From the UHGV virus genome UHGV-0113858: a DNA stretch of 64,000 bases, one strand, 5' to 3'. This stretch comes from a virus. Under the pieces are notes generated by a model. It saw only the letters and a program-made list of their open reading frames with translations. It was not told the origin of the DNA and ran no database searches. Below, in pieces: positions 12,626 to 30,024 of the stretch. How positions within the stretch are numbered: position 1 is the first letter of the stretch; each line of letters opens with the position of its first letter. A program made the position numbers and the translations under genes.

Positions 12626-12650
12626 GGGCTTCGGCCCCTTTTTCGTTGTT
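12626..12650 (+). terminator. rho-independent terminator
   Basis: aaggggcttcggcccctt then ttttcg. Confidence 0.55.
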
Positions 12651-12674
12651 TTATTTGAAGATTTATGATAAAAT
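12646..12674 (+). promoter_or_regulatory. promoter motif TTGTTT-N17-TGaTAAAAT
   Basis: Same architecture; 26 nt upstream of ATG 12701. Confidence 0.45.
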
Positions 12675-12700
12675 CATAACAAGCTTATTGAGGAGGTTTT

Positions 12701-13573
12701 ATGGCAGTTGTAGCAAGTAACCAGTCCAAACCGCAACAAGGTAAGGCTACAGCAAACGTTGAGCAAAAAGTCTCTACGGCTCAGAATGCCAGTAGTGAAG
12801 TTCAATATACTTTATTTGCAAGCGGCCTTAACAATGGCGGAAGGAATGTAGAATTAAAAAATAAAAACTATACGGACAATATTGCGATTTTATTTGATGT
12901 CGTTGAAGACCATACGTATACAAGAACTGTTGACAAAACCTCCTACGCAGTAGAGAATAAGGTCAAGTACAGTGATCATGGTGTGATAGAGGATGGTAAA
13001 TTCTCTTTCAGTGCGAGAATCAATAGCTCGCCCCTATACCTGATTGAGAATAACTACATCGATAAAGATACCGACCCTAACAACCCGGTAGAATCCCGTC
13101 GCCCAGAAAAGGCACTGGAGGTACTAGAAAGGCTTATCACTGACCGCCAAATCGTCACCATTGTTACTGAAGACCGTATCATCGAAAACTACATCTTGAC
13201 CTCCCTGGAGGCAAGCCGTAGCAATTCTGATGGTGCTGCGTTGGTATTTCAGTTAGAATTCACAGAATTCCGTACTTTTACCCTTGGGAAGACGGCCTTA
13301 GCTACAGTCTATACCGACCCTAAAAAATCAGGTGGTAAGACAAAGCAGAAAGGTTCTGTTCAGTCTTCTGCCACAGATAATGAAGTGGAAGTGACCGCAA
13401 GGAGAACCAAGTTCGCTGGGCCTAATCAAGATGGTTGGCAAAAGGTTGCAGATGAAATGGGTATTGGTGATTATACCAAGCAAGATCAAGTGGTGGGAAC
13501 ACTGACGCCGGACGGTAAACTCAAGGATCTAAATGGAAATACCCTCGACTATAATAAAGCGGTAGGTAACTAA
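12701..13573 (+). CDS. baseplate / tail protein (Mu gpN-position)
   Basis: 290 aa, SD gaggagg, first gene after tape measure. Confidence 0.4.
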   Translation: MAVVASNQSKPQQGKATANVEQKVSTAQNASSEVQYTLFASGLNNGGRNVELKNKNYTDNIAILFDVVEDHTYTRTVDKTSYAVENKVKYSDHGVIEDGKFSFSARINSSPLYLIENNYIDKDTDPNNPVESRRPEKALEVLERLITDRQIVTIVTEDRIIENYILTSLEASRSNSDGAALVFQLEFTEFRTFTLGKTALATVYTDPKKSGGKTKQKGSVQSSATDNEVEVTARRTKFAGPNQDGWQKVADEMGIGDYTKQDQVVGTLTPDGKLKDLNGNTLDYNKAVGN

Positions 13574-13926
13574 TGGCAGCGATCACATTTTCTTGGGACA
13601 TAGACGGCTTTGCTGATCAGACGATGCGTGTGGTTCTGGACAGTCAAACTTATGAAATGCGTTTTCAATGGAACGAGAGAGACGAGTCTTGGCTCGTCTA
13701 TTTCGGGGATGTTGGTTCTGATCCTACAATATCTTTCAAATTGACTACAATTTTCGATATATTCGCGCCTTTCAAATATCTTGACAATATTCCCGATGGT
13801 CAGTTGAGAGTATTTTCTTTTACTCAATCAACTAAACGTGTAGGGAGATACAATATTGGATTTTTGTCAGACTTGCAACTACTTTACTCGTCTCCTGATG
13901 ATGAGGTAACGACTGCTGAGGAGTAA
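13573..13926 (+). CDS. small baseplate protein
   Basis: 117 aa, TAATG overlap with previous gene. Confidence 0.4.
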   Translation: MAAITFSWDIDGFADQTMRVVLDSQTYEMRFQWNERDESWLVYFGDVGSDPTISFKLTTIFDIFAPFKYLDNIPDGQLRVFSFTQSTKRVGRYNIGFLSDLQLLYSSPDDEVTTAEE

Positions 13927-13929
13927 ACA

Positions 13930-14919
13930 ATGCCTGCTTACAGAACAAGAACCTATAAGCTAACGATAGGCAAACCAGTGTATGTTGGTGAAAAGCCTAC
14001 CAATATCTCAGATTACACTAATCAGAATGCCAAAGATGCGTATTATATCAGTAATGAAACTGGTGCCGCAAATATCGAGTTCGAGGTCAAAAAAGACAAC
14101 TCGAAGGAGCCTAATAAAGGGTATGTTACCATCTACAACCTCTCCGATGAGACGGTGAGCTACCTCGATGCTAACCAACGAGAGTCCATTGCTATCGTTC
14201 TTGAGGCCGGGTTTGATGGTGAGAATCAGACTATCTTTTCTGGGACCGTAGAGTTTGTTCAAGATAAGTGGGACGGCAATACCCGTCAGACAAAGATGAT
14301 CCTCGGGGATGCAACAGTAAATATTAAAACTGCAAAGACCTCTCGTTCTTATAAGAAAGGTACTCCAATAGACACGGTAGTCAGTGACCTTGCTTCTGAT
14401 ATGAAGCTCCCTGTTGGTAAAATAGTCAAGTTTGGCGACCAAACGCTTCAGCACTCTATGTCCTTTACGGGCCTCGCCGCAAATAACTTGGAGAGATTAG
14501 CCAAGAATACAGGATCTACTTTCAGTGTTCAAGATGGTGCGGTATATTGGACCACGCAAGGGAAAAGATTTCAAAGGGCAGTTTTTGAGATCAGTGCTGA
14601 ATCTGGTATGCATGATTCACCAACGCCACAGAACCCTGAGCCTGCAAAGAGGAGAAAGGAAAAAAGGGCCAAGTCTAAGAAAAAATCATCTAAGCCTCAT
14701 GTACCTACTTCCGCAGAAATAAAAGAGGACGCGGGGTTGGTGGTGGTAACAGAAATGAATGGTGCAATCATACCAGAATCAACTGTATTTTTAAAGAGCC
14801 AGAAATACACAGGTTTTTACAAGGTTGTATACTTAACTCACAAAGGCCAGCTCGAAGGTGGGGATTGGATCACAGAGTTAGGACTTGCAGAAACCCGTGG
14901 TGGAATTGTGGAGGCCTAA
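13930..14919 (+). CDS. baseplate hub protein (P2 gpD / Mu gpP-like position)
   Basis: 329 aa, SD gaggag, basic Lys-rich linker (AKRRKEKRAKSKKKSSK). Confidence 0.4.
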   Translation: MPAYRTRTYKLTIGKPVYVGEKPTNISDYTNQNAKDAYYISNETGAANIEFEVKKDNSKEPNKGYVTIYNLSDETVSYLDANQRESIAIVLEAGFDGENQTIFSGTVEFVQDKWDGNTRQTKMILGDATVNIKTAKTSRSYKKGTPIDTVVSDLASDMKLPVGKIVKFGDQTLQHSMSFTGLAANNLERLAKNTGSTFSVQDGAVYWTTQGKRFQRAVFEISAESGMHDSPTPQNPEPAKRRKEKRAKSKKKSSKPHVPTSAEIKEDAGLVVVTEMNGAIIPESTVFLKSQKYTGFYKVVYLTHKGQLEGGDWITELGLAETRGGIVEA

Positions 14920-15620
14920 TGGCAGCAATAACCCGTATGGATGCAGCACTTAATCAGTGGTTTGCAAAACAGGCCAGAGATATTCACACAGGGCTAAGGG
15001 CAACGGTAGTTGATGTGGACTATAGCATCCCGTCTGCAACAGTTCAGCCCCTTGCGAGTACAAACTTTCCAGATGGGACTGTGGATGCCTATGGCTCTGT
15101 TTTTGATGTTCCCCTATCAATGCCTTCAGGTAATGGAGGAAAAGCCCGCCTAACGATTCCTGTGAAACCTGGTGATATTGTGGGTCTGAGCTTCTCAGAA
15201 AGAAATGAGAATGATAATAATGACCAGACAACTCACAATATGTTTCCTGGGTGGGCGATAATTGGTGTTCACAGCGATGGGAATGCCATGACGATCGATC
15301 CAGACAATGTTGAACTTTGGAACGACAAGGTGCATTTCTCAATGACTCCTGCGGGTGATTTCACGCTGGAGACGCCAGTAGGTAAATTAGTAGTTGACCA
15401 ATCTGGGAATTTCAAGTTCGATAATGGGGCGGCAAACCTGACAGCAGAATCTGGTGGTACGATTAAGATGAATGGTGCTCAAGTTACCCCTGATGGCAAT
15501 ATTATTACTGCTCGGGGTGTAAACATGAATGATTTTTATGATTATTTTATTCGCCATACACATCACTATACTTGGACAGATGATGGTGGTCAGAACAATA
15601 CCGATGCTCCAAATGCATGA
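14919..15620 (+). CDS. central baseplate spike (gpV / Mu gp45-like) with HxH apex
   Basis: Start MAAITRMDAAL, TAATG overlap, SD ggagg; C-terminal FIRHTHHYTWTDDGG matches the iron-binding HxH apex of gpV-type spikes. Confidence 0.5.
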   Translation: MAAITRMDAALNQWFAKQARDIHTGLRATVVDVDYSIPSATVQPLASTNFPDGTVDAYGSVFDVPLSMPSGNGGKARLTIPVKPGDIVGLSFSERNENDNNDQTTHNMFPGWAIIGVHSDGNAMTIDPDNVELWNDKVHFSMTPAGDFTLETPVGKLVVDQSGNFKFDNGAANLTAESGGTIKMNGAQVTPDGNIITARGVNMNDFYDYFIRHTHHYTWTDDGGQNNTDAPNA

Positions 15621-15629
15621 GGGGAATAG

Positions 15630-16244
15630 ATGGCAACTCTTTATTCTGACTTCTTGATGGACCCTGTTACTGGAGATCTTGATGTTTCTACAGGTCTTCA
15701 GTTGATAGACTCCAATCAAGTAAGTCTACGACAGCGCTTATGGCTAAGGTTTAATGTGTGGGCAGGGGATTGGTATTTTGATGAGACCTTTGGATTTCCC
15801 TATAGAACCTACATAAGCAAAAAGGTTATGAAGACGGTCCTTGATAATAAGATAAAGGAAATAACCCGTCTTGAACCAGATGTTTTAGAAATTGCAGATT
15901 TCCAGTCTATAATGGACCATACAACAAGAAGCTATTCTGCCTTCTTTGAAGTCTTAACAAAAGAGCAGGAGATTGTAAGAATAGCCTTCGTAGGCGGTGA
16001 TGATTACTACTACCCTACGCCGGATCCTGAAACAACAACTCTTTGCGGGGATGAGGGTTGGATACCTTGGGGAAATAAGTTATACTACCTTATTAACTTT
16101 AGATTACCTAAGACTGGTGATGCAACTTGGTGGAATACTTGGGGAGGGGATATGGAAAACCCTGTACCGCCAGGATCTCTCTTAACCAGAAAAAGTAATC
16201 CGGTAGTCACCCCCGCCGATAAGACGATAAACACCATAAAATAA
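15630..16244 (+). CDS. baseplate protein (gp25/W-like position)
   Basis: 204 aa, SD gagggga. Confidence 0.35.
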   Translation: MATLYSDFLMDPVTGDLDVSTGLQLIDSNQVSLRQRLWLRFNVWAGDWYFDETFGFPYRTYISKKVMKTVLDNKIKEITRLEPDVLEIADFQSIMDHTTRSYSAFFEVLTKEQEIVRIAFVGGDDYYYPTPDPETTTLCGDEGWIPWGNKLYYLINFRLPKTGDATWWNTWGGDMENPVPPGSLLTRKSNPVVTPADKTINTIK

Positions 16245-16272
16245 AAATTATTACAATTCGAGATTTCTTTTA

Positions 16273-16310
16273 GGTCTGTGCTACCTAACGGCAGACCTTT
16301 GTTCTTTTAA
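16273..16310 (+). terminator. hairpin with T-run
   Basis: aggtctg...cagacct stem then ttgttctttt. Confidence 0.4.
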
Positions 16311-16333
16311 ATCTTTGAAGTTTGTGGTAAAAT
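16305..16333 (+). promoter_or_regulatory. promoter motif (weak -35 TTTTAA)-N17-TGgTAAAAT
   Basis: tggtaaaat 16325-16333; 32 nt upstream of ATG 16366. Confidence 0.4.
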
Positions 16334-16365
16334 GTACTAATGTTAAGAAGAGGGGTAAATAAAAG

Positions 16366-18252
16366 ATGCTACAGAGTGTTAAAATTTCAGAGTTGCCAAG
16401 TGCGGCCACGCTGACAGAAGACGACCTGATTGTGGTTGACCAACCAGATGATACTAAGAAAGCGACTTTGTTCCAAGTATTTTCAACTGTTATCGATGAG
16501 GTTGAAAATGCAACATTTGATGTTCTTTCCCAAGAAGACGGTGCTGAGAAGATAGGTTTTAAAGTAAATTCTACCAACGCGATTATGCGGACAGTGATGG
16601 GGAGGCTACTGGACACAATCAATGTAATGGACTTTGGAGCAAAAGGTGATGGGGTTGCTGATGATTACCCTGCATTTCAATATGCGGCTCTCTATGCAAA
16701 CTCTATCGGCGGGGCGTTGATTGAGATACCAACCCCGTCTGTTGAGTACAAGATTGGATTTCCAGTATACCTCTTCGATAATACGCATTTTAAAGGTAGT
16801 GGGATAAATTGTAGAATAAATTTCACAGACCCCCTTTATGCCCGAAAATCAAGAAGTGGATTTGTAATTGGCAGCGGGCATGAACAAAACAGGGATAAGG
16901 CGATTCAATGCCTAAATGATGGGACTTGGAAAACGACAGGGTCTGTCGTAAATACAAGTTTTGTTGAATTACCTAGAGGGAGTTATCTTCGGGATAATCT
17001 TAGTAAGGTACAATCTTCAAACTGTAGTGTCAGTGATGTATATTTGGTGGCGAGCTACCCTAATGGGACAACTCTTAAGGGTGGGTATGCAGTGTCTTTT
17101 GCAAATGCACTGGACTCTGAAGCCTATAATATTTGGGGAGAGGGGTGGACGGAGATAATAAATATCGGATCAGACGTTCCTCCAGCCACACCCAGTTGCC
17201 ATAATTGCCACGCTTATAACATTACCTGTATTGATCCTAATCAGTATGAAACATACTATAGTATGGGTTTTATAGCGAATTCAACTTCTTGCTCTATTCA
17301 CAACTTCTTCCAACTAAAACCAATCGCAGATGGCACCCCTCATGGGTCTGGCGGTTCTATGAACTACACGGAAGATTGTGCATTTTATAACATTAATATC
17401 CCCAATCTTGGAAGAACTAGTACATCTGAGGGATTACTTGTAAACAATTCTAAGAATGCAAGGACATATAATATTTATATAGGTAATGCCAAGTCTGGGG
17501 TTGCTGAATATTATACTACAGAAGCGGGGGTATTCTATGATGCTGCAAAACCTAATATCTTCGAGGATATACACGCTAATAACTGTGATCACGCTACAGC
17601 CTTGCGCTCTAAATATAGTGTTTGGAAAAATGTAACACAAACAAATTGTGTTGACCATGTATTTTTTGGCACTAGCAATGCGCAATACTGTGTGGTTAAG
17701 TTTGTTCCTGACCTCATTGGGTATGGTAGTGGATTAACACCGTGGCACATTTTACAAAATAACTACGTGGATGGTTGGAGAGTTAGAACCAAGTACCTTC
17801 GTCCTATCGACTGGCTTTTGAATGACAAGGTTGATCTCCAATCCTACGATACCAATAAAAACATGAAGGCGAAGGCTGCGGTTAATTTAAAAGTGTTATA
17901 CGACATACCTGCAAGCATACGTGCGATAGCCGAATGTCGTTGTTTCTTGACTTTCGAAGTTGGCGCTCTTAGTGCTGGATCAAATGTAAAAATGTCGTTG
18001 CGAAGAATGGTGTCATACTCTGGTAATGCCAACGAATTACCATATATCGAGGCAACAAATACAAGGGCTGCAACTGTTGATACTGTACAAGATACTACAC
18101 TTGTTATGCCTGTCACTAATTCAAAAGGGTTTGTAGAACAATCAGATACTACCAATGGATTAGCCAATGCCTTAGACCTTCTAATCGAGATAAATAGTCC
18201 AACCGTAAATATGAACTTGAAAGAAATCAAGTTGACTTATTTGGGCGATTAA
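16366..18252 (+). CDS. tailspike / receptor-binding protein 1 with conserved N-terminal anchor
   Basis: 628 aa; N-terminus MLQSVKISELPSAATLTEDDLIVVDQPDDTKKATLFQV is shared with the genes at 18278 and 22563; C-terminal region Asn/Gly/Thr-rich, beta-helix-like. Confidence 0.6.
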   Translation: MLQSVKISELPSAATLTEDDLIVVDQPDDTKKATLFQVFSTVIDEVENATFDVLSQEDGAEKIGFKVNSTNAIMRTVMGRLLDTINVMDFGAKGDGVADDYPAFQYAALYANSIGGALIEIPTPSVEYKIGFPVYLFDNTHFKGSGINCRINFTDPLYARKSRSGFVIGSGHEQNRDKAIQCLNDGTWKTTGSVVNTSFVELPRGSYLRDNLSKVQSSNCSVSDVYLVASYPNGTTLKGGYAVSFANALDSEAYNIWGEGWTEIINIGSDVPPATPSCHNCHAYNITCIDPNQYETYYSMGFIANSTSCSIHNFFQLKPIADGTPHGSGGSMNYTEDCAFYNINIPNLGRTSTSEGLLVNNSKNARTYNIYIGNAKSGVAEYYTTEAGVFYDAAKPNIFEDIHANNCDHATALRSKYSVWKNVTQTNCVDHVFFGTSNAQYCVVKFVPDLIGYGSGLTPWHILQNNYVDGWRVRTKYLRPIDWLLNDKVDLQSYDTNKNMKAKAAVNLKVLYDIPASIRAIAECRCFLTFEVGALSAGSNVKMSLRRMVSYSGNANELPYIEATNTRAATVDTVQDTTLVMPVTNSKGFVEQSDTTNGLANALDLLIEINSPTVNMNLKEIKLTYLGD

Positions 18253-18277
18253 AGATAAATTTTCAGGAGAATATTAT

Positions 18278-20827
18278 ATGGCCTTTGATACAATTAAAAT
18301 TGCGGAGCTACCCTCCGCAACACAAATAGTTGAAGACGACTACCTAGTTGTAGAACAACCAGATAAGACCAAAAAGGCCACTGCCTTTCAGGTTATCTCA
18401 GACCTTGACTTGGCAAATAAATCATCCTTGACAGGACCTGGTGGGGCTGCTATTATCGGCACAGAGGATGGACAGGGAGTTCAGAAGAATCTTGATACCG
18501 ACCGCGCAAACACAAGAGAGCTTTGGAGAAGAGCGCTGCACGACCTTGGTTTGACACTTGTGGACGGCTCTTTTGAAGAAGGTGCCGAGCTTACCTACAC
18601 AACCGATGCTATTTGGCATATGTCTGGGGCGCAATGTTACACATGGTCGGGGACTTTTCCAAAATCTGTGTCTGCTGGGTCAACACCATCCACTACAGGA
18701 TCTGGATGGATTACGGTTGGTGGGCTAAGTCTGCTAGATGAAGTCACCGAGATCAAAAATGAAGCAGTTGAGGCAAAAGACCAAGCAGAGGATGCGAGAG
18801 ATGAGGCTCAGGCATATGTATTGCAGGCCTCTGAGCTGGGAAACTTATATGCCTCTGTTAGTGAAGGTCTTGCTGCAACTACGGACGGACAATATTTCCA
18901 AGTCCCTCAAGGAAGTGATAGCTCTGTAGCGTTCAAAGTGTACAAGAATAGTGCAGGGGTTGCTCAAGAAGTTGCGCGAGTTCCAGGAACAGCCGCTATA
19001 ACTGGTACAATCCGTGAATTTCCCACGCTGGCGGCTGCGCAGGAGGATGTAGACGCTGGTAATATTTCTGTTGGGTCAACAGCGTATTATCGAAGCTCTG
19101 ACGACGCAACTCTTGCGGTTGAGGTTATTAACAACGCCGGAACACTGGAACCTACCGGGCGGAAGATGCCTTCTCATGGGTATGTTGACAGAGTAATCAA
19201 CACCTCAACGGATAATGGAAATATCACCGTTACCTCTGACTCTGATGGTAACACAGTATACGTCCGTGACGACTTTGGCGGTGTAAATATCCCCGGCATT
19301 CCTGCGCCAGTTCAGGACATATTACAGCAGGTTAAGAAAGATGCATCACCGGCAATTCTCCGCCTGACCGATGCAGAAAATGCGGCCTTTGCCTCAGTGG
19401 ATGAATATGGGCATTTACGTCTGCCGGGAATGCCGGAGAGTATGCAGGAGAGGCTCGAAGCCTTAAAAAAACGCATGGAAGTGATTCGTAAGCAAGGCAT
19501 GATTCTGGATGTGCGGGATTGCGGCTTCAACGCGAAAACAGGGCAGGATGCCCATCGCCCGCTGCAACGGGGTTACAACTGGTTATCAGCGAACGGCGGC
19601 GGATATTTATATGCACCGCCAGCTTACTACAAGTTGCCCATCCCGGTAGTTCCCAAGTCTGGCGTTTCGCTTGTCGGTGGCGGCCAGGAAGGCACAATAT
19701 TTTTACCAATGGGATATCTGCCTGCGTTTCAGTATCGGGGGAAACCAACCGAGGCATCGACGGAAGTTTACGTCGAAAATATCCAGTTCTGTGATTTTAC
19801 CGTTGATGGCGAAAATCAGCAGTTGCACCCAGAGCGTGGATATATTCCCGATATTAAAGGGATTTTTCTTCAGTATTACCGCAATGCTTACTTCGACCGT
19901 CTGACCATTCGTAACACGGGGGCCACCGGTTTTGGTGTGGATATGCCGGATAAGGTTTTTGTCGCCAACTTCATCGTTGAAAACTGCGGCAGGCTGGCGC
20001 AGGTCGGCGACCTCGGCGCGTCGGGGTTCGGCCTTGGGACCAGTTTCTTGAGCAGCGAGCCGATATTCCTATCGAAAATCGTAGGGCGCGGAAACAAGAA
20101 CTATGGTATCTTCTTCGAACCGCAGAGGGGCACAGGTACTGCACAGGATGCTATCGTCTCTATAGCTACGTTCTCCGGGAACTACGCGGGCATGGCGGAT
20201 TGCGGTATTGAGGGGCTGATTGCCTCTGATGTCAATCTGCGCGGGAACCAGTACGGATTTATGGCGGATACCGGCACCAACAACGGCGGGCGTCCAGGTC
20301 ATCGCGGTAAGCTGATTAATTTGATTGTCAAAGACAACACAAAACACGGAATGTATTTTGTCTCGGCTAAAGATGAGAACCTCATCGGTGAGTACGCCAT
20401 TATTGGGGCGCATATTTTTGGTAATGGTGAAGACGGCATTAATTTCAAGTACGCGAACAATCGGACAAATTCCGGTTTGCGTGTATCAGATTGCGATATT
20501 AATAGTAACGGTCGTCATGGTTTACATTTCGAATCTGGCCCCGTGGTTAACGCTCATGTGACAAATACCAGATTCTGGAATAACGGGAAACAGGTTTCAG
20601 GTAACGGCATCAACAGCAGCGCGAGCGTGAAGAAAAGCCGCTTCTCGATGAATAGCTATTACGATTTTCAGTCAGCACCAACGCAGCAGTACCCAGTATC
20701 CATCAGTGGGGATATGGAGGATGTCGACATTTCCTTCAATCACGGCGCAGGCAATGTGCATAACTCACTCAACCTGACCGGGAATAAAACCCGCGTCACC
20801 ACACTTTCAAATTCGGGGATCGAATAA
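18278..20827 (+). CDS. tailspike / receptor-binding protein 2 (mosaic: conserved N-anchor plus GC-rich C-terminal beta-helix module)
   Basis: 849 aa; N-terminus MAFDTIKIAELPSATQIVEDDYLVVEQPDKTKKATAFQV; visibly GC-enriched from about 19300; repeated GxxG/NxxG beta-helix-like segments. Confidence 0.6.
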   Translation: MAFDTIKIAELPSATQIVEDDYLVVEQPDKTKKATAFQVISDLDLANKSSLTGPGGAAIIGTEDGQGVQKNLDTDRANTRELWRRALHDLGLTLVDGSFEEGAELTYTTDAIWHMSGAQCYTWSGTFPKSVSAGSTPSTTGSGWITVGGLSLLDEVTEIKNEAVEAKDQAEDARDEAQAYVLQASELGNLYASVSEGLAATTDGQYFQVPQGSDSSVAFKVYKNSAGVAQEVARVPGTAAITGTIREFPTLAAAQEDVDAGNISVGSTAYYRSSDDATLAVEVINNAGTLEPTGRKMPSHGYVDRVINTSTDNGNITVTSDSDGNTVYVRDDFGGVNIPGIPAPVQDILQQVKKDASPAILRLTDAENAAFASVDEYGHLRLPGMPESMQERLEALKKRMEVIRKQGMILDVRDCGFNAKTGQDAHRPLQRGYNWLSANGGGYLYAPPAYYKLPIPVVPKSGVSLVGGGQEGTIFLPMGYLPAFQYRGKPTEASTEVYVENIQFCDFTVDGENQQLHPERGYIPDIKGIFLQYYRNAYFDRLTIRNTGATGFGVDMPDKVFVANFIVENCGRLAQVGDLGASGFGLGTSFLSSEPIFLSKIVGRGNKNYGIFFEPQRGTGTAQDAIVSIATFSGNYAGMADCGIEGLIASDVNLRGNQYGFMADTGTNNGGRPGHRGKLINLIVKDNTKHGMYFVSAKDENLIGEYAIIGAHIFGNGEDGINFKYANNRTNSGLRVSDCDINSNGRHGLHFESGPVVNAHVTNTRFWNNGKQVSGNGINSSASVKKSRFSMNSYYDFQSAPTQQYPVSISGDMEDVDISFNHGAGNVHNSLNLTGNKTRVTTLSNSGIE

Positions 20828-22248
20828 TGGCGACCATTGTAAAAAGTAATATGAAAATTAAAGGTAATATTAAATTACCTCCTGTAAATGCCCCTCTTCC
20901 AGAGGGGGCTAATCTCTTCTCGGACTTTGCAGGCTCTCGTCATGTAATCAAACATGCCAGCGGTAATGTTATTCGCTCAACTAAACTTACGGATATTCTC
21001 TCATTCTCGAGAGCAAGTACCGCAACTCGGGTCGCTGAAAGCGGATTACTGGAGTACCTCCAGGCGAATGAGCCCGCTATTGATTATCACCCAATGTCCG
21101 GGGAGTGTCTGGGTTTGCGGATTGAGCGGGGTACGTCGAATCGCCTCGCATGGAGCCAGGACTTTACTAAAACTGCCACCTGGTCTGCTTCTGGTGTTGT
21201 GCTCACGCCTGCGTCCGCTGTTTCACCGGACGGCAACCTTACAGCAACCAAGATGATTGAGGCCACAGATACCGCAGCATCAGTACGAAAACTGGCAGCA
21301 ACGACAACGGTGGATGGAACTAAAGGTAATCCCTTCGCCTTTAGCGTTTTTGCGAAAGCGAATACTGCGGACGTACTTCAGCTCTCGGCTGTGGGAGCAT
21401 TCCCTGGCCCGACCTTTGTTAACTTTGATCTGAAAAATGGCCGGCTCGGGAAAACCTCGACAGGATCAACCACAAGAGGGTTATTGCAGGCATCAATCGA
21501 ACCATTCCGCAACGGCTGGTATCGTTGCTCAATTGTCATCATCCCGTATAGCGCCATGAATCCGGAATTTACGCTGGCGTTGGTTGATAACGATACCAGC
21601 GCCGGGCCGATGCCTTCGTATTTGCCTGCAACACCTAAATCGGTATTTATCTGGGGGGCGCAGGCTGAGTTTTCCGATGGGACATCATCCTACATCCCAA
21701 CTAACGGCGCAGAGGCTCAGCGGTCGAATGATATCTGCACCACGCCGACTGTGGCATCGTTTGTGACTGCCGCAGCTGGTACGGTCTTGGTTTCGGTTGC
21801 GTTTCCTCACAGTATCATGGCTCTCACCGAGACCTACGGATCGCTGTCCTGTGCTGCCGTAATTGATAATTCTGTCGTAGGCCCGCATGTGCGATTCGCG
21901 TACCGGAATGCGAACGTTGATGGCAATTATGGTGCAGTGCTCGGCGTGGTTCCTGACGCGACAGGAACGGCGCAGAATCTGGAAATTCCCAGCATGGCTC
22001 CCGTGCCTGACAGCGAGCAATCGTGCATTTTTTCGTTCGACGCGACTGCGCTGAATTCCAGACTGTTTGACGGGTATAACTGGTATGAGCGGAGTTTTAC
22101 TGCAGCACCACCAGCCCTGAATCGCCTGTGTATCGGCCGGGGATATCTGGATTCCAGCAACTACCTGAAGGGATACATTAAAAAGATCATTTACTGGCCT
22201 ACAGCTTTGTCTGAGAGCGAAATGGAAGAAATTCTCTCTTATCAGTAA
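20827..22248 (+). CDS. putative receptor-binding / tail-associated protein within the GC-rich block
   Basis: 473 aa, start overlaps the previous stop, SD gggga; GC-rich composition continues from the RBP2 C-terminus. Confidence 0.45.
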   Translation: MATIVKSNMKIKGNIKLPPVNAPLPEGANLFSDFAGSRHVIKHASGNVIRSTKLTDILSFSRASTATRVAESGLLEYLQANEPAIDYHPMSGECLGLRIERGTSNRLAWSQDFTKTATWSASGVVLTPASAVSPDGNLTATKMIEATDTAASVRKLAATTTVDGTKGNPFAFSVFAKANTADVLQLSAVGAFPGPTFVNFDLKNGRLGKTSTGSTTRGLLQASIEPFRNGWYRCSIVIIPYSAMNPEFTLALVDNDTSAGPMPSYLPATPKSVFIWGAQAEFSDGTSSYIPTNGAEAQRSNDICTTPTVASFVTAAAGTVLVSVAFPHSIMALTETYGSLSCAAVIDNSVVGPHVRFAYRNANVDGNYGAVLGVVPDATGTAQNLEIPSMAPVPDSEQSCIFSFDATALNSRLFDGYNWYERSFTAAPPALNRLCIGRGYLDSSNYLKGYIKKIIYWPTALSESEMEEILSYQ

Positions 22249-22493
22249 GTTCGCCCTGTCCTAAATAGTGATAGGTGCAATCACACTTGATCTTCACTTT
22301 CGATAAAAATGCTGTATATAAAAACAGTGCTTATCGGATTGCAGATCATGCTTCGACATCCAGAAGTAGCCCGCTTTAGCCAGCAGTCCCTCAGTTTTCT
22401 TTTCAGATAAAAACTGTATGTAGAACCAGTTTTGATCGGGAGGACCATGTTCCAGCATAGATTAATAGGGTAGGTATAACAGTTAAATTCTCC

Positions 22494-22511
22494 CCAGCAC
22501 CTAGGTGCTGG
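22494..22511. promoter_or_regulatory. perfect 18-bp palindrome ccagcacctaggtgctgg
   Basis: Self-complementary; lies in a 300-nt noncoding gap upstream of the 22563 gene. Confidence 0.4.
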
Positions 22512-22528
22512 TATGCAAAAAAAAAATC

Positions 22529-22544
22529 CACAGATGCATCTGTG
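22529..22544. promoter_or_regulatory. perfect 16-bp palindrome cacagatgcatctgtg
   Basis: Self-complementary; 19 nt upstream of ATG 22563. Confidence 0.4.
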
Positions 22545-22562
22545 TCTCATATCGGGGTTAAA

Positions 22563-23390
22563 ATGGCAACAACAGAACTCTCAGTTATCAAGATAAAAAA
22601 TCTTTCTGATAAGACCCTTGTAACAGGCAGTGATGAAATTATTATCCAATCTTCCACTGACACTGAGAAGACGTCCATTAATAAGTTCATCACTGATATA
22701 GGGCTTCTTAAAAGAAGTGAAGTAACAGGCATCACAGGTGCCTCCGTTATTGGCACTCACTCTGGGGCTACTGTCCAGCAAGTTTTGGACAGCCTTTCTA
22801 ATAGTTGGCAGAATTTGTACTATTTCTCCACTACTGGGAATGAGATCGGAACACATGTTGACACCATTGCCCTTAGCCCTGTGCAAAGAACTTATGGTGT
22901 TCAAATATCAACACCTTTAGCATCATTTTCTCCTAAGGTAGACAATGTATTGTCCAACGGTACAACATCTCTACGTTGGAGTCAAGTGTATGCAGTTAAC
23001 AGTGTAATCTCCACATCAAATAAAAAGAAGAAAACAAATCTTCGACAAATTACACCTACAGAAGCAAAAGCTTTTTATGAAATTGGGAAACTAGATTCCG
23101 TATGGCAATGGTTGTCTAAATATTCTTCCGAAAAGGGTGCTGCTAGGCTTCATTCAGGGCCTACTGTGCAGGATGCTATTAAGGTCATGCTCAAACACGG
23201 TCTCGATTGGACCAAGTATTCAGCTTTCTGCTATGATAGCTGGGAAGCGAATGGGGATACTCCCGCAGGTGAAGAATTCGCTTTTAGAAAAGAAGAACTC
23301 TTATTTTGGATACTTAGAGCAACAATTGCGGTGCAGGAAGATCTTGACAAGCGCCTTTCAGCCTTGGAAAATTCTCTGTCCGGTAACTAA
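22563..23390 (+). CDS. tail fibre with shared N-anchor and a C-terminal peptidase-S74-like intramolecular chaperone domain
   Basis: N-terminus MATTELSVIKIKNLSDKTLVTGSDEIIIQ parallels the other two anchors; C-terminus ...SNKKKKTNLRQITPTEAKAFYEIGKLDSVWQWL...HSGPTVQDAIKVMLKHGLDW resembles endosialidase/T5 pb1-type chaperone domains. Confidence 0.45.
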   Translation: MATTELSVIKIKNLSDKTLVTGSDEIIIQSSTDTEKTSINKFITDIGLLKRSEVTGITGASVIGTHSGATVQQVLDSLSNSWQNLYYFSTTGNEIGTHVDTIALSPVQRTYGVQISTPLASFSPKVDNVLSNGTTSLRWSQVYAVNSVISTSNKKKKTNLRQITPTEAKAFYEIGKLDSVWQWLSKYSSEKGAARLHSGPTVQDAIKVMLKHGLDWTKYSAFCYDSWEANGDTPAGEEFAFRKEELLFWILRATIAVQEDLDKRLSALENSLSGN

Positions 23391-23391
23391 C

Positions 23392-23416
23392 CACCCTCCG
23401 GGGTGGTTTTTTCATT
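23392..23416 (+). terminator. rho-independent terminator
   Basis: accaccctccggggtggt then ttttttc. Confidence 0.55.
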
Positions 23417-23436
23417 TATGACCCCTCCCCCTTTAT

Positions 23437-23465
23437 TTGCAAAACACTGCCACGTATGGTAAAAT
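23437..23465 (+). promoter_or_regulatory. promoter motif TTGCAA-N17-TGgTAAAAT
   Basis: Exact 17-nt spacer; 35 nt upstream of the TTG start at 23501. Confidence 0.5.
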
Positions 23466-23500
23466 ATACAAAAGAATCATGGTCCTGAAAGGAGGACGAA

Positions 23501-24994
23501 TTGGCAACTCAATATGGATTGAGCGATTACGGTTTCACTATCCCCTCTCTTGATGACCTTATCGCAGACACAAAACAGACCCTCATTAGAACTTTCGGTG
23601 AAAATTTCAACACGCAAGCTAACACAATTGCTGACAAGTTGACAACCATCTTTAACGAGAGAGAATACCAGATTATCCTTCTGGCAGCATCCATCTATTC
23701 CGCTCAGACCCTTGCTGGGGCCGAAGGTATTTACCTTGATGAGTTGCTTTCCAGAAGAGGTGTTTATCGTCGAGGAAAAACAAAAAGTTCAGGGTCTGTT
23801 GAGATGACAGTTAACAACACTGTCCCTTACAACATGGTATATTCCCAAAACACATATACACTTGATAGTGGTACATTTGTATTAAATGACGACACCACCC
23901 TTGCTGGTAACATACTGGCACAAAAAATTCTCAATAAGGACTGGGTTGTAGGTACTTATAGTTTACAGATCAATAATCAAAACACCGGAACAACAAGTCA
24001 AACAACTCTTCAGTTGACCAATAAAACCCCTAATAGCTCTCAGCTTAACACTTTCATGGCCTCTGTCAAGAGCTTTGTTGTCAACAACACCTCCGAGCTT
24101 AATAATGATAGGATCATCATTGACTCTCAAAACGGGGCATTGTACATTGGGTATGATACTAATCTTGAAATGATCGGACTTAACAGCCGTGTGGATTTCA
24201 GAACATCACCGATTGTTGGTGAGCGTACAATCACAATGGATGTTGTTGCTGTTGAGGCAGGTGAACTCTCCAGAGAGAAAAACACCGTAACCTCGATCTC
24301 CCCAACACCAGGTGGGTTCATCAGTCTTAACAACATGAATGCCTTCACAGAGGGGACAGATGTTGAGACTGATACCGAATATAAGGTTAGGGCTTCTAAC
24401 ACAACAGCATCGAGTGCTGCTGCGACCAGGCCTGCGGTGGTGAGTGCTGTCCTTGGGGTGAGTGGTGTAAGTAAGGTTAAAATCTTCTCAAATAACACAG
24501 GGACTACAGACCAGAATGGAATACCACCGTACAAGTTTGAGACCGTGGTGTATGGTGGGTCTACTGAAGATATTAGCAAGGCACTTTATAATTCAATTGC
24601 TTTGTCTAACGCTACCTATGGTAATGTTTTTTATGATGTCCCTACTGAGGATAATCAGACAGAACGAATTTATCACAGTAAAGCACAGGCACGGGATTTG
24701 GCTATCCGTGTCCGTTATAAAGGAAAGGTTCTCTCAACAACTGAACAGGATACTATAAAGTCCGCTCTCAAAGGGGTTATTGACCCGCTTAACATTGCTG
24801 ACACTTTATACAACATCCAGCTTGTATCTGCTGTAGGTTCTTCTATCTCTGCTGGTAGATTTACACAACTTTATATGGATGTCAAGAACGTCAGAGATCC
24901 TGATACTTCCTATACAACCTCTGATGTTGTTGCAGGGATGGATGAGGTATTCTCTATCGACACTGATAATATTACATTCCTACAGATAATCTAA
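23501..24994 (+). CDS. baseplate wedge protein (gpJ / gp6-like), TTG start
   Basis: 497 aa; the only start with SD (aggagg, 7-nt spacing) is TTG at 23501; followed by a gpI-like gene as in P2/Mu baseplate cassettes. Confidence 0.45.
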   Translation: MATQYGLSDYGFTIPSLDDLIADTKQTLIRTFGENFNTQANTIADKLTTIFNEREYQIILLAASIYSAQTLAGAEGIYLDELLSRRGVYRRGKTKSSGSVEMTVNNTVPYNMVYSQNTYTLDSGTFVLNDDTTLAGNILAQKILNKDWVVGTYSLQINNQNTGTTSQTTLQLTNKTPNSSQLNTFMASVKSFVVNNTSELNNDRIIIDSQNGALYIGYDTNLEMIGLNSRVDFRTSPIVGERTITMDVVAVEAGELSREKNTVTSISPTPGGFISLNNMNAFTEGTDVETDTEYKVRASNTTASSAAATRPAVVSAVLGVSGVSKVKIFSNNTGTTDQNGIPPYKFETVVYGGSTEDISKALYNSIALSNATYGNVFYDVPTEDNQTERIYHSKAQARDLAIRVRYKGKVLSTTEQDTIKSALKGVIDPLNIADTLYNIQLVSAVGSSISAGRFTQLYMDVKNVRDPDTSYTTSDVVAGMDEVFSIDTDNITFLQII

Positions 24995-25002
24995 GAGGGA
25001 TT

Positions 25003-25632
25003 ATGGCAGATACGCTAAAAGATGTCAACCACATCCATCCATTGGATGATTTCGTTTCGGACGGTATTAACTACCTGCCGGGGGACTTTTTACGGGAAAA
25101 AGAAAACCTTGTAAAATTTTTATCCGTGTATTTGGAACGAATGAAGGCTGTAGATGAGATGATGGTCAATCTTGCAGAAGGGCGTCTCCTCCAGAATGCC
25201 GGAGGGGTCAACTTGGATGAGATTGGTGCTCAAGTGGGGATTGACAGAAATGGCTTGAGTGATATGAATTATCGTGCCATTATCACAATCCTGCTCTCAA
25301 GCACAGCTAAACACGGGACCAGACCTGAGGTAATTGGGACGCTGAAGCAACTCTTCGGAGCCGAGAATTTTACCACTTACAAAGGTGATAATTATCGTTT
25401 TGATATCAATATCTTTAATAGCTGTTTCGAGATAGAAACAGCTATACAAGAAATAAAAGATATGCTCCCTATGCCTACGTACCTTCGACTGGTAAAATCA
25501 GAAGGGCTACCCTTTGGGTTTAAAAACGATTCCTATGCAATCGGTTTTGGGTCTGTAAGCACATCGCGAACAGGGACTGGTGGCCTATCCAGTCTTATCT
25601 ATACCTCCGAAGAAGAGAACACACTATTATAA
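25003..25632 (+). CDS. baseplate protein (P2 gpI / Mu gp48-like)
   Basis: 209 aa, SD gaggga, position after the J-like gene and before fibre plus chaperone. Confidence 0.4.
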   Translation: MADTLKDVNHIHPLDDFVSDGINYLPGDFLREKENLVKFLSVYLERMKAVDEMMVNLAEGRLLQNAGGVNLDEIGAQVGIDRNGLSDMNYRAIITILLSSTAKHGTRPEVIGTLKQLFGAENFTTYKGDNYRFDINIFNSCFEIETAIQEIKDMLPMPTYLRLVKSEGLPFGFKNDSYAIGFGSVSTSRTGTGGLSSLIYTSEEENTLL

Positions 25633-25641
25633 GGGAGAATC

Positions 25642-26688
25642 ATGGCAATTCCTACTATTCCTCTTCAGATATGGGCTGAAAGTGACGTCGTGTTACCTAA
25701 TGCTCATACTGCAAATAAAATCTCCCCTATCGCGGACCTTTGGGACAAGGGTTGGGATTTGGGTGAGAAGCCCGCTTGTGAAGAACTTAACTATGTTCTT
25801 AACATGATGACTTGGTGGATGACGTACATCTCAGAAGAGCAGATCCCCGGACTCTCTAATGATTATCTGAGAAAAGATCAAAACCTTAGCGATGTATCTG
25901 ATATCCCAACGGCAAGAAGCACTCTGGATGTTTACAGCAAGGGGGAAAGTGATACCCGGTATGTAAATGTTTCTGGTGATACAATGACTGGGGCGCTGAC
26001 AGTACCCAGAATAACATTCCCCTCTGATTCTAGCGATACCGCTCATATCACCACCACAACAGGTGCGGATCAAGTCTATTTGGACTTCGTTATTGGTGAT
26101 AATTTAGGAACAGCGGGGCAACCAACTGTAGATATCATGAGGTTCCGCTTTGTTCCTGTAAACAACTCTGGTACATTATCACCATTCAACATGATGGAGC
26201 TTAATGCAACGTCTAATGGCGTTGCGCTGCTAAAGGTGCAAGGGAATATTACGGCAACAGGAACTACCACAACGGGGACATTGGCCTCGACAACCATCAA
26301 CAATGGTGGTAATATACAGACAAACAGTTTGGGTGTCAACGGTACTACAACGTCCCAGAACTTGGTCGTTAACTCTAACAACGCAACTGTTGGTGGAAGA
26401 TCCATTGTTCGTGCAGTAAACAGCACTGCTGCGAATGCCAATGGGGACCTTTATATCAGTATTGGTGTTTCCGACATTCGTTGGAGTGGTGAGCAAAACA
26501 AAGTTAATGTTAACTTTGAAAATTATGGTTCAGGTGGACGTTTTGCGCGTGGACCAGACGGCTCTGTATTGACTGGCTTGATTGATGCAAACGCCAGTGG
26601 AGATCTTTATCTGCATGATATTGACGAGATAAGATTCCGATTCTTACAGAAAGCTCTTGATGGCGTTTGGTATACAGTGGGGCTTTAA
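25642..26688 (+). CDS. tail fibre protein
   Basis: 348 aa, Thr/Gly/Asn-rich with TATGTTTTGTLAST repeats, followed by a Tfa-like chaperone. Confidence 0.55.
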   Translation: MAIPTIPLQIWAESDVVLPNAHTANKISPIADLWDKGWDLGEKPACEELNYVLNMMTWWMTYISEEQIPGLSNDYLRKDQNLSDVSDIPTARSTLDVYSKGESDTRYVNVSGDTMTGALTVPRITFPSDSSDTAHITTTTGADQVYLDFVIGDNLGTAGQPTVDIMRFRFVPVNNSGTLSPFNMMELNATSNGVALLKVQGNITATGTTTTGTLASTTINNGGNIQTNSLGVNGTTTSQNLVVNSNNATVGGRSIVRAVNSTAANANGDLYISIGVSDIRWSGEQNKVNVNFENYGSGGRFARGPDGSVLTGLIDANASGDLYLHDIDEIRFRFLQKALDGVWYTVGL

Positions 26689-30022: not shown

Positions 30023-30024
30023 TA

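What the first reader, a model, noticed from the sequence alone, without database searches (positions are those of the whole stretch)
16366..23390. Three receptor-binding proteins share one N-terminal anchor, with a GC-rich acquired distal module (about 19300-22250)
The N-termini MLQSVKISELPSAATLTEDDLIVVDQ, MAFDTIKIAELPSATQIVEDDYLVVEQ and MATTELSVIKIKNLSDKTLVTGSDEIIIQ are clearly homologous, while the C-terminal parts are unrelated. The distal part of RBP2 and the following 473-aa gene are visibly richer in G+C than the rest of the window. That is consistent with recent horizontal acquisition of a host-range module from a higher-GC donor. With the fibres at 25642 and 28262, the phage carries at least six adhesin genes, implying a branched multivalent adsorption apparatus.
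Basis: seen in the sequence. Interest (0 to 1): 0.6.

Follow-up and report, generated by a model that had tools for sequence, protein, structure and literature searches.

The report
Phage tailspike cassette captured from prophage
A virulent Klebsiella phage (genus Mydovirus) hangs three tail proteins on one shared N-terminal docking peptide, and one of them has recently swapped its outer half, plus a neighbouring sugar-binding-like gene, for a 3.2-kb cassette almost identical to one in Klebsiella prophages; this is a clean natural case of a well-known way phages change host range.

Summary
Both observations hold. The three N-termini are homologous: RBP1-RBP2 E=6e-12, RBP2-275aa E=3e-10, RBP1-275aa E=0.035, and no fourth copy occurs in the window. 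Region 19300-22250 has GC 0.507 against 0.452 for the window (z=3.7), above every other same-length stretch.

The window is a Klebsiella Mydovirus, 97-98% identical to KpS8-type phages outside this locus. Segment ~19119-22310 comprises the distal RBP2 (neck plus right-handed beta-helix), the 473-aa gene and a 3' tail with a LexA-box-like palindrome. It is 99-100% identical per 100 bp to Klebsiella prophages over most of its length. Its GC (0.507) and GC3 (0.51-0.55) match prophage backbones (0.505-0.513), not Mydovirus genes (GC3 0.35-0.43). This supports temperate-to-virulent transfer.

The 473-aa protein has no anchor. It is a two-domain lectin-like protein (RcGTA head-spike-fibre domain) that lies directly downstream of the beta-helix gene in all 17 related loci examined. 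I read it as a partner subunit of the spike; this is inferred, not shown.

RBP1 is also a chimera: a 39-aa anchor plus a Webervirus-like depolymerase body. The third anchored protein is a short fibre with a self-cleaving chaperone domain.

RBP module swapping and anchor sharing in Mydovirus are already published, so this is a new member of a known kind.

The parts
16366..16482 (+). RBP1 N-terminal anchor (aa 1-39), conserved among Mydoviruses
   Evidence: Nucleotide similarity to Seu621 and Mydo runs through the upstream baseplate genes and stops at 16482. BLASTP to the RBP2 N-terminus gives E=6e-12.
16483..18252 (+). RBP1 body: pectate-lyase-like depolymerase module shared with Webervirus and Przondovirus
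   Evidence: Pfam PF12708 and phrog_14442 at E=4e-245. By tblastn, aa 37-628 are 78-79% identical to Webervirus tail proteins and 65-69% to Przondovirus tail proteins. No DNA match in Seu621 or Mydo. GC 0.406, GC3 0.355.
18278..18502 (+). RBP2 N-terminal anchor (aa 1-75)
   Evidence: BLASTP to RBP1 and to the 275-aa protein. The anchor profile finds 97 cluster representatives, nearly always at residue 1.
18566..18721 (+). RBP2 Tail_spike_N domain (aa 97-148)
   Evidence: Pfam PF18668, E=3.4e-10. PDB sequence hits to the tailspike N-domains of 8x8m, 5w6h and 4oj5.
18845..19118 (+). Conserved linker domains (aa ~190-281) that serve as the left homology and crossover zone
   Evidence: About 75-87% identical both to other Mydoviruses and to prophage RBPs. 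The same segment is shared with Webervirus, Jedunavirus, lambda-like and Pectobacterium phages. Dense mismatches to L010 end at 19118.
19119..20827 (+). Acquired distal RBP2: helical neck plus right-handed parallel beta-helix (putative capsule depolymerase)
   Evidence: 99-100% identical per 100 bp to prophage loci L006, L008 and L010, except 19800-20300. In the AF2 model the beta-helix (aa ~406-849) runs to the C-terminus. Foldseek matches AlgE4/AlgE6, GH28 enzymes and the HK620 and Sf6 tailspikes. GC3 0.55.
19800..20300 (+). Internal divergent patch within the acquired beta-helix (secondary mosaic)
   Evidence: 77-97% identical to every available relative, whereas sister phages L020 and L007 are 99-100% identical to L010 here. 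Across the whole distal RBP2 the differences from L010 are mostly synonymous (50 synonymous, 6 non-synonymous codons).
20827..22248 (+). 473-aa lectin-like partner gene (RcGTA head-spike-fibre domain plus a second beta-sandwich), with no anchor
   Evidence: NCBIfam NF048003 at 111 bits against a cutoff of 36. PDB 6tb9 Rcc01080 E=8e-17, and E217 gp45 / Pa193 gp46. AF2 pLDDT 84; Foldseek finds the Pa193 and E217 wedge proteins, LamG/neurexin and CBM40. 96-99% aa identical to Klebsiella chromosomal proteins. Directly downstream of a beta-helix gene in 17 of 17 related loci, with a stop/start overlap (TAATG or ATGA) in 15.
22249..22364 (+). 3' non-coding tail of the cassette, with a LexA/SOS-box-like palindrome at 22310-22329
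   Evidence: Identity to L010 continues to ~22310-22364. The palindrome is TGCTGTATATAAAAACAGTG in the window and a perfect TACTGTATATAAAAACAGTA in L010. Its core also lies downstream of the RBP gene(s) in L009 and pKp383 and, degenerate, in Mydo.
22563..23390 (+). Conserved Mydovirus short fibre: anchor (aa 1-75), short shaft, and intramolecular chaperone domain (aa ~121-264)
   Evidence: Pfam PF13884; phrog_23437 at E=2e-183. PDB hits to T5 pb1 4uw8, 7y5s and endosialidase 3gw6. 93-97% nt identical in other Mydoviruses. A terminator-like hairpin lies at 23389-23408.

Best explanation
This is the variable receptor-binding locus of a virulent Klebsiella Mydovirus (Vequintavirinae), placed between conserved baseplate genes.

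Three proteins (RBP1, RBP2 and a 275-aa short fibre) start with one homologous 40-75-residue module. I infer that this module plugs each of them into a site on the baseplate, so any cargo fused behind it is displayed on the virion.

RBP2 is a recent chimera. Homologous recombination inside a widely conserved linker domain (crossover between 19118 and 19177, aa 281-300) replaced its distal part with a ~3.2-kb cassette from a temperate Klebsiella phage. The right edge lies at ~22310-22365. The cassette carries a beta-helix polysaccharide depolymerase body, a translationally coupled 473-aa lectin-like gene, and a fragment of the donor's downstream SOS-box element.

Because the 473-aa protein lacks the anchor yet travels with the beta-helix body through myovirus, lambda-like siphovirus and virulent backbones, I infer that it binds the spike itself. 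It would act as a separately encoded carbohydrate-binding subunit, an accessory adhesin. The net effect would be a change or extension of capsule-type specificity.

Shown here: the homologies, breakpoints, composition, strict gene adjacency and predicted folds. Inferred: docking to the baseplate, enzyme activity, spike-partner binding, and the effect on host range.
For: Identity of the phage:
- 97-98% nt identity to KpS8-type Mydoviruses across 24 kb.
- The gene order around the locus is conserved in Seu621 and Mydo.

Anchor:
- A profile of the three N-termini finds only 97 of 1.84 billion cluster representatives, nearly all at residue 1, on proteins from about 40 to over 1400 aa.
- The cargo behind it includes pectate-lyase-like, alginate-lyase, SASA esterase, S74 chaperone and RCC1 domains.
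- The Mydovirus RBP2 N-terminus also occurs with SGNH, SASA, S74 and alginate-lyase C-termini on ~140-kb contigs.

Transfer:
- Window 18983-22283 matches a K. pneumoniae chromosomal prophage over 3301 bp without gaps at 95.0%.
- The lambda-like contig L010 matches 18887-22364 at 95.7%.
- Per 100 bp, identity is 99-100% outside one patch.
- The cassette of sister phage L020 is 98-100% identical to L010 per 100 bp from 19200 to 22300.

Direction of transfer:
- Cassette GC is 0.507, prophage backbones 0.505-0.513, Mydovirus neighbouring genes 0.41-0.45.
- GC3 is 0.51-0.55 in the cassette against 0.35-0.43 in neighbouring genes.
- Dozens of Klebsiella, Raoultella and Serratia chromosomal protein clusters carry the beta-helix body (40-93% identity) and its partner (53-99%). 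The Mydovirus chimera forms a single 849-aa cluster.
- A LexA-box relic lies at the right end.

Not an artefact: the same in-frame chimera occurs in two independent assemblies.

Pair:
- The two genes are adjacent in 17 of 17 loci.
- A stop/start overlap (TAATG or ATGA) is kept in 15.
- Their identities to the window's proteins covary across 11 loci (r=0.95).
- The pair is kept even at 40-45% aa identity in the isolated phages RAH2 and Kmi2C; Ec1-ASingh also carries both homologues, by tblastn coordinates.

Folds.

Precedent:
- Mydovirus H gained a complete RBP by recombination, 'likely from a prophage', in experimental evolution (PMC12654880).
- N-terminal sharing across RBP classes is general in Klebsiella phages (bioRxiv 10.64898/2026.05.12.724579).
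Against: - No structure or interaction data exist for the anchor. It has no detectable solved relative, and the N-terminal 150 residues of the RBP2 model have low confidence.
- No evidence shows that the 473-aa protein is in the virion or touches RBP2.
- Its closest solved relatives sit on a capsid vertex (RcGTA) or inside a baseplate wedge (E217, Pa193), not on a tailspike.
- The three sister Mydovirus genomes differ by 4-5% in the flanks. Either the chimera is not brand new or it moves among Mydoviruses.
- The exact donor is not identified. Relative to the window itself, every candidate has a diverged 500-bp patch.
Confidence: 0.8

Rival explanations
1. The transfer went the other way: temperate Klebsiella phages picked up the cassette from a Mydovirus.
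For: High nucleotide identity alone does not give a direction. The left homology zone is shared by both kinds of phage.
Against: - The cassette's GC and GC3 equal those of prophage backbones and differ from every neighbouring Mydovirus gene.
- The beta-helix body and its partner occur in many diverged chromosomal clusters (40-93% and 53-99% identity) and on three prophage RBP N-termini. The Mydovirus fusion is a single cluster.
- The right end carries a LexA-box element typical of temperate phages.
Confidence: 0.05
2. The GC-rich block is an assembly chimera: host prophage reads joined to a phage contig.
For: Prophage DNA from the propagation host can contaminate phage lysates. The block is 99-100% identical to host-borne sequence over most of its length.
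Against: - The junction is in frame within a conserved domain.
- The same locus, collinear over 14.5-15 kb, occurs in an ENA metagenome contig of 144 kb and in an NCBI assembly contig of 38 kb.
- The right junction returns to Mydovirus sequence, with KNP2 similarity from 22383.
Confidence: 0.02
3. The raised GC reflects amino-acid composition or selection on this protein, not foreign origin.
For: In RBP2 aa 1-203, total GC is raised only through codon positions 1 and 2 (GC1 0.58, GC2 0.46, GC3 0.40). Part of the visible GC rise (18400-19100) is therefore compositional.
Against: From ~19150, GC3 jumps to 0.55 and 0.51. The DNA there is near-identical to prophages.
Confidence: 0.02
4. The 473-aa protein is not a virion adhesin. 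It is either an assembly chaperone for the beta-helix trimer or a non-structural cargo gene.
For: Phage fibre genes are often followed by dedicated chaperones, and translational coupling fits a fixed-ratio helper. There is no direct evidence that the protein is in the virion.
Against: - It has two concanavalin-A/LamG-like beta-sandwiches and a domain homologous to structural proteins (the RcGTA head-spike fibre and the E217 and Pa193 wedge proteins).
- The homologue in Kmi2C is annotated as a tail protein.
- Known tail-fibre assembly proteins are much smaller and have other folds (my own knowledge).
Confidence: 0.2

Closest known systems
RBP swapping in Klebsiella Mydovirus H (vB_Kpl_K54lambda1.1.1 to the K54_rec1-6 recombinants; Ferriol-Gonzalez & Domingo-Calap, PLoS Biol 2025, PMC12654880)
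   Same: Same genus and a near-identical backbone (97.6-97.8% nt). The event there was also replacement of an RBP by recombination, attributed to a prophage and linked to a host-range shift.
   Different: In that study the donor sequence was of unknown origin and the acquired RBP resembled those of other Mydoviruses. Here the counterpart is found in K. pneumoniae chromosomes and in a lambda-like contig at 99-100% local identity. The breakpoints are mapped, only the distal part of the RBP was exchanged, and a second gene came with it.
Modular tailspikes with conserved N-terminal anchors (CBA120 TSP1-4, G7C gp63.1/gp66, and the Klebsiella RBP atlas in bioRxiv 10.64898/2026.05.12.724579)
   Same: A conserved N-terminal attachment module is followed by exchangeable enzymatic bodies. 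RBP2 contains the Tail_spike_N domain PF18668 of TSP1/gp66. Several RBPs sit on one virion.
   Different: The first 75 residues have no detectable solved homologue and form a small family of 97 cluster representatives. No T4 gp10-like branching domain was detected by Pfam or PHROGs.
RcGTA head-spike fibre Rcc01080 (PDB 6TB9) and Pbunavirus wedge proteins E217 gp45 / Pa193 gp46 (8ENV, 9B45)
   Same: The central domain of the 473-aa protein is homologous (E=8e-17 and ~1e-10; NF048003; top Foldseek hits).
   Different: Different location and context. The gene is the last of a tail-fibre cassette, always behind a beta-helix gene. It has an extra C-terminal beta-sandwich and shares no homology with the rest of the wedge proteins.
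Separately encoded distal adhesins (T2 and S16 gp38 on gp37) and fused CBM-lectin C-terminal domains of Klebsiella depolymerases (KP32gp38-type; DepoCatalog, PMC13385381)
   Same: The proposed logic is the same: a carbohydrate-binding unit at or next to an enzymatic or fibrous RBP. The beta-helix of RBP2 ends without a C-terminal sandwich, while the next gene supplies two.
   Different: No sequence relationship to gp38. A physical association is inferred only from the strict gene adjacency and covarying identities.

Membership tests
Mydovirus (Vequintavirinae) variable RBP locus | Backbone nucleotide identity and conserved gene order between the baseplate genes | tested here: met
   97-98% nt identity over 24 kb to KpS8-type phages. 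Flanks 13001-16482 and 22560-30175 are 92-94% identical to Seu621 and Mydo, with the same gene order.
Mydovirus (Vequintavirinae) variable RBP locus | RBP1, RBP2 and the short fibre each begin with the shared N-terminal module | tested here: met
   The N-terminal DNA of all three genes is conserved in Seu621 and Mydo.
Beta-helix tailspike depolymerase | Right-handed parallel beta-helix body | tested here: met
   The AF2 model has high confidence over aa ~406-849. Foldseek finds AlgE4/AlgE6, GH28 enzymes and the HK620, Sf6 and phi29 gp12 proteins at E down to 5e-12. Homologues carry PF13229 and PF12708.
Beta-helix tailspike depolymerase | Homotrimer with polysaccharide-cleaving activity on a defined capsule type | not testable with these tools
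   Needs expression of the protein and halo or enzymatic assays on a K-type panel.
Phage head-spike-fibre domain family (NCBIfam NF048003, RcGTA Rcc01080) | HMM score above the curated cutoff and homology to the solved chain | tested here: met
   111.1 bits against a cutoff of 36. 6tb9 matches at E=8.1e-17 over aa 56-340.
Phage head-spike-fibre domain family (NCBIfam NF048003, RcGTA Rcc01080) | Location on capsid vertices | not testable with these tools
   The gene context (last gene of tail-fibre cassettes) argues for a tail location, but no virion data exist.
Fibres with a C-terminal intramolecular chaperone (Peptidase_S74) | S74 domain above the Pfam cutoff and homology to solved chaperone domains | tested here: met
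   PF13884 at 36.9 bits against a cutoff of 22. PDB hits 4uw8 (T5 pb1), 7y5s, 6eu4 and 3gw6.
Fibres with a C-terminal intramolecular chaperone (Peptidase_S74) | Autoproteolytic release at the conserved serine | not tested
   The catalytic residues were not inspected.
Horizontally acquired cassette from a temperate phage | Near-identical DNA in prophages, sharp breakpoints, and donor-like composition | tested here: met
Branched RBP systems with a T4 gp10-like docking domain (KP32, K11 and PhiK64-1 types, as I recall from Latka et al. 2019) | A T4 gp10-like domain in the first RBP and a conserved docking peptide in the second | tested here: inconclusive
   Pfam and PHROG scans of RBP1 and RBP2 report no such domain. 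The 473-aa N-terminus (MATIVKSNMKIKGNI) is conserved among its homologues. No structural comparison of the N-terminal region was possible because the model confidence there is low.
LexA (SOS) operator | CTGT-N8-ACAG palindrome matching TACTG(TA)5CAGTA | tested here: met
   The window has TGCTGTATATAAAAACAGTG at 22310-22329. L010 has a perfect TACTGTATATAAAAACAGTA; the identical 16-nt core also lies in pKp383 and L009. LexA binding itself was not testable.

The most novel reading that the evidence does not exclude
The 473-aa protein defines an undescribed class of detachable lectin subunit for prophage-type beta-helix depolymerases. On this reading the spike is 'split': the carbohydrate-binding module is a separate, translationally coupled polypeptide that docks on the spike rather than on the baseplate. 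That would make the two-gene unit portable between myovirus, lambda-like siphovirus and virulent Mydovirus virions. The conserved linker on the left and the SOS-box element on the right would act as the recombination handles.
Probability: 0.35. Interest if true: 0.5.

Novelty: new member of a known kind. Interest (0 to 1): 0.35.

Why it matters
The locus is a naturally occurring, base-pair-resolved example of a virulent therapeutic-type Klebsiella phage re-arming itself from the prophage pool of its host. It shows the crossover point, the donor type and the direction of transfer.

This matters for phage-therapy design. It indicates where RBP2 can be cut and re-joined (aa ~281-300), and that the downstream 473-aa gene probably has to be moved along with the beta-helix.

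It also flags a lectin-like partner gene that may escape pipelines built to find primary RBPs or depolymerases; the atlas preprint itself lists separately encoded accessory adhesins as a caveat. The general principle is already established, so the value is as a worked example and an engineering lead, not as a new concept.

Tried and rejected
- Megablast and blastn of the block against 50,697 phage records found only the conserved N-terminal and linker parts. No deposited phage carries the cassette at high identity.
- Plasmids gave no match.
- The scan of GTDB species-representative genomes with six peptide patterns found no relative. The alignment A1 was too diverse for that tool. This is a sampling limit, because the protein database holds many Klebsiella chromosomal copies.
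- A PDB sequence search with RBP2 residues 1-81 found nothing even at E<=10. The AF2 model of RBP2 is unreliable for residues 1-150, so the fold of the anchor remains unknown.
- Rfam found nothing at 22100-22700 (E<=1) and only sub-threshold hits, none reaching gathering score, downstream of the cassette in L010.
- The promoter and terminator scan gave no convincing terminator after the 473-aa gene. The only strong one follows the 275-aa gene.
- Full-text literature searches for 'head spike fiber' together with Klebsiella returned no paper, and DepoCatalog does not mention such a partner gene.
- I considered that RBP1 might also be a recent import. I rejected 'recent' because its similarity to Webervirus is only 78-79% at the aa level, there is no megablast hit, and its GC3 is backbone-like.
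Full report
**What is at the coordinates**

The region holds four forward-strand genes:
- RBP1, 16366-18252, 628 aa.
- RBP2, 18278-20827, 849 aa.
- A 473-aa gene, 20827-22248. Its ATG shares an A with the TAA stop of RBP2.
- A short gene, 22563-23390, 275 aa (282 aa if read from the GTG at 22542).

Baseplate genes flank the region. A sheath-initiator-like gene lies at 15630-16244 and a Baseplate_J gene at 23501-24994. Two further tail-fibre genes lie at 25642 and 28262.

The window belongs to a Klebsiella Mydovirus (Vequintavirinae). A 24-kb replication block is 97-98% identical to K54lambda1.1.1, Seu621, K23PH08C2 and KPP-1. The gene order around the locus matches Seu621 and Proteus phage Mydo.

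**Check of the observation**

The three N-termini are homologous:
- RBP1 vs RBP2: E=6e-12.
- RBP2 vs the 275-aa protein: E=3e-10.
- RBP1 vs the 275-aa protein: E=0.035, so this pair is linked through RBP2.

Nothing else in these proteins aligns significantly. An HMM of the three N-termini finds no fourth copy among the 720 six-frame ORFs of the window.

GC of 19300-22250 is 0.507, against 0.452 for the whole window. That exceeds every non-overlapping stretch of the same length (maximum 0.488, z=3.7).

Codon-position analysis sharpens the picture. The visible GC rise from ~18400 comes from first and second codon positions (RBP2 aa 1-203: GC3 0.40). GC3 jumps only from ~19150, to 0.55 in distal RBP2 and 0.51 in the 473-aa gene, against 0.35-0.43 in the neighbouring genes.

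**The acquired block and its source**

The 473-aa protein is 96-99% identical to proteins on large K. pneumoniae and K. variicola chromosomal contigs. At the DNA level:
- Window 18983-22283 aligns without gaps over 3301 bp at 95.0% to a K. pneumoniae prophage. That prophage lies next to an isochorismatase-family gene and aspS, ruvCAB and znuABC (L006).
- Two more myovirus-type prophages at the same chromosomal site match at 93-96% (L008, L009).
- A lambda-like contig with J, I, K, L, M and tape-measure genes matches 18887-22364 at 95.7% (L010).

In 100-bp steps, identity is 99-100% from 19200 to 19800 and mostly 97-100% from 20300 to 22200, apart from one 94% window at 22000. A diverged patch lies at 19800-20300.

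Two independent assemblies carry the same chimeric locus: an ENA contig of 144 kb (L007) and an NCBI contig of 38 kb (L020). This excludes an assembly artefact.

In L020 the cassette is 98-100% identical to L010 in every 100-bp window from 19200 to 22300. A lambda-like temperate phage of that type is therefore the best candidate donor.

The window's own 500-bp patch is a later mosaic. Across the whole distal RBP2, the differences from L010 are mostly synonymous (50 synonymous against 6 non-synonymous codons).

Mismatch maps place the left crossover between 19118 and 19177 (aa 281-300) and the right edge at 22310-22365. Similarity to Mydovirus KNP2 resumes at 22383.

**Direction of transfer**

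Several lines point from temperate phage to Mydovirus:
- Cassette GC (0.507) equals the prophage backbones (0.505-0.513). It differs from the Mydovirus neighbouring genes (0.41-0.45) and from the host chromosome (0.588).
- The beta-helix body occurs in many chromosomal clusters of Klebsiella and Raoultella at 40-93% identity, behind at least three unrelated N-termini. Its partner occurs in Klebsiella, Rahnella, Serratia and Raoultella clusters at 53-99%.
- The fusion to the Mydovirus N-terminus is a single 849-aa cluster.
- The right end of the cassette carries a LexA-box-like palindrome. The window has TGCTGTATATAAAAACAGTG at 22310-22329, and L010 a perfect TACTGTATATAAAAACAGTA.
- The palindrome's 16-nt core also sits directly downstream of the RBP gene(s) in L009 and in Jedunavirus pKp383 and, degenerate, in Mydo. 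An SOS operator is a temperate-phage feature, so I read it as a hitch-hiking relic.

**The recombination handles**

The left crossover lies in linker domains (RBP2 aa ~190-300). These are 75-87% identical both to other Mydoviruses and to the prophage RBPs. They are also shared with Webervirus, Jedunavirus, lambda-like and even Pectobacterium phages.

In Mydovirus-sized contigs, the same RBP2 N-terminus (85-90% identical over ~36% of the protein) is joined to SGNH, SASA, alginate-lyase or S74 C-termini. RBP2 is therefore a slot with exchangeable cargo.

RBP1 is built the same way. Mydovirus DNA similarity stops at 16482 (aa 39). Residues 37-628 are 78-79% identical to Webervirus tail proteins and 65-69% to Przondovirus tail proteins. 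That exchange looks older, because there is no megablast hit and its GC3 is 0.355.

**The anchor**

A profile of the three N-termini, searched against 1.84 billion cluster representatives, finds only 97 proteins at E<=0.001. The match is almost always at residue 1, on proteins from about 40 to over 1400 aa.

Of 37 long members:
- 17 continue with Tail_spike_N.
- Their cargo includes pectate-lyase-like beta-helices, an alginate lyase, a SASA esterase, S74 chaperones and an RCC1 propeller.

This fits a generic docking module. However, no solved relative is detectable, and the model of this part of RBP2 has low confidence. Docking to the baseplate is therefore inferred by analogy with other tailspike anchors (bioRxiv 10.64898/2026.05.12.724579).

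**The proteins of the cassette**

In the AF2 model of RBP2, a right-handed beta-helix runs from aa ~406 to the C-terminus, with no terminal beta-sandwich. Its best structural matches are alginate epimerase/lyase A-modules, GH28 enzymes and the HK620, Sf6 and phi29 tailspikes.

The 473-aa protein models well (pLDDT 84) as two beta-sandwiches.
- It meets NCBIfam NF048003, 'phage head spike fiber domain'.
- It is homologous to RcGTA Rcc01080 (6tb9, E=8e-17) and to a domain of the Pbunavirus wedge proteins E217 gp45 and Pa193 gp46.
- It structurally resembles LamG/neurexin and CBM40 domains.
- It has no anchor.

A homologue of the beta-helix body lies immediately upstream in all 17 related loci examined. 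These comprise four prophage-type loci (three chromosomal prophages and the lambda-like contig L010), two sister Mydoviruses, two isolated phages and nine IMG/VR contigs. A stop/start overlap (TAATG, or ATGA in RAH2) is kept in 15 of the 17.

Across 11 loci, the identities of the two genes to the window's proteins covary (r=0.95). The pair persists down to 40-45% aa identity, in phages whose loci have 37% and 56% GC.

Because the pair works behind different attachment modules in different virion types, the partner most plausibly binds the spike itself. It would supply a separately encoded carbohydrate-binding unit. This is an inference. A chaperone role is the main alternative.

**The third anchored protein**

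The 275-aa protein is conserved in Mydoviruses at 93-97% nt identity. It consists of the anchor, a short shaft, and an intramolecular chaperone domain homologous to those of T5 pb1 and the endosialidases.

After self-cleavage it would be only ~120-150 residues long. Calling it a receptor-binding protein is therefore provisional.

**Comparison with what is known**

- RBP replacement in a near-identical Mydovirus, attributed to a prophage, has been seen in experimental evolution (PMC12654880).
- N-terminal sharing across RBP classes, recent Webervirus-Mydovirus exchange of receptor-binding domains, and eleven co-occurring RBP classes in Mydovirus are described in a 2026 preprint.

The finding is thus a new, well-resolved member of a known kind. 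I could not find any description of the conserved beta-helix plus lectin-like two-gene unit, or of its SOS-box tail.

**Verdict**

Interest is moderate to low for a specialist, because the principle is established. The partner protein is the part worth an experiment.

Noticed in passing
window 22270-22364 (palindrome at 22310-22329); L010 6778-6797; L009 11486-11501; L003 (pKp383) 7354-7369: A LexA/SOS-box-like palindrome (TACTGTATATAAAAACAGTA in L010) lies directly downstream of the RBP cassette. It is preceded by a -35-like TTGATC and followed by GGAGGG plus ATG. In L010 an intrinsic terminator follows about 120 nt further on. It looks like a small SOS-controlled transcript of temperate Klebsiella phages. 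The window keeps only a truncated, slightly mutated relic. No Rfam family matches.
   Followed up: partly
window 19800-20300: Inside the acquired beta-helix, a ~500-bp patch is only 77-97% identical to every relative found. The sister Mydoviruses L020 and L007 are 99-100% identical to the lambda-like contig in the same stretch. The differences are mostly synonymous, which suggests a second, smaller gene-conversion event from an unsampled allele.
   Followed up: partly
window 16366-18252: RBP1 is also a chimera, with a very short anchor (39 aa). Its body is 78-79% aa identical to Webervirus tail proteins and 65-69% to Przondovirus (K11-type) tail proteins. Its GC (0.406) is below the window average.
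   Followed up: partly
window 12278-26827 vs L020 and L007: The three sister Mydovirus genomes are fine-scale mosaics across the whole baseplate and fibre block. Neighbouring 300-bp windows switch between 82-90% and 99-100% identity, and which two of the three genomes are closest changes from segment to segment.
   Followed up: no
L007 7451-10001: In the 144-kb metagenome contig, the RBP2 homologue is called as two ORFs (404 + 448 aa) rather than one of 849 aa. The cause may be a frameshift or an assembly error near window position ~19450.
   Followed up: no
L001 (Seu621) 13579-14406 and 14606-15433: Seu621 has two consecutive 828-bp (275-aa) genes after its RBP2, where this window has one. 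The first may be a paralogue of the short anchored fibre.
   Followed up: no
window 40001-41500: This is the second most GC-rich patch of the window (0.49-0.52 in 1-kb windows). It lies within a 676-aa minus-strand ORF (39794-41824) that has no Pfam hit.
   Followed up: partly
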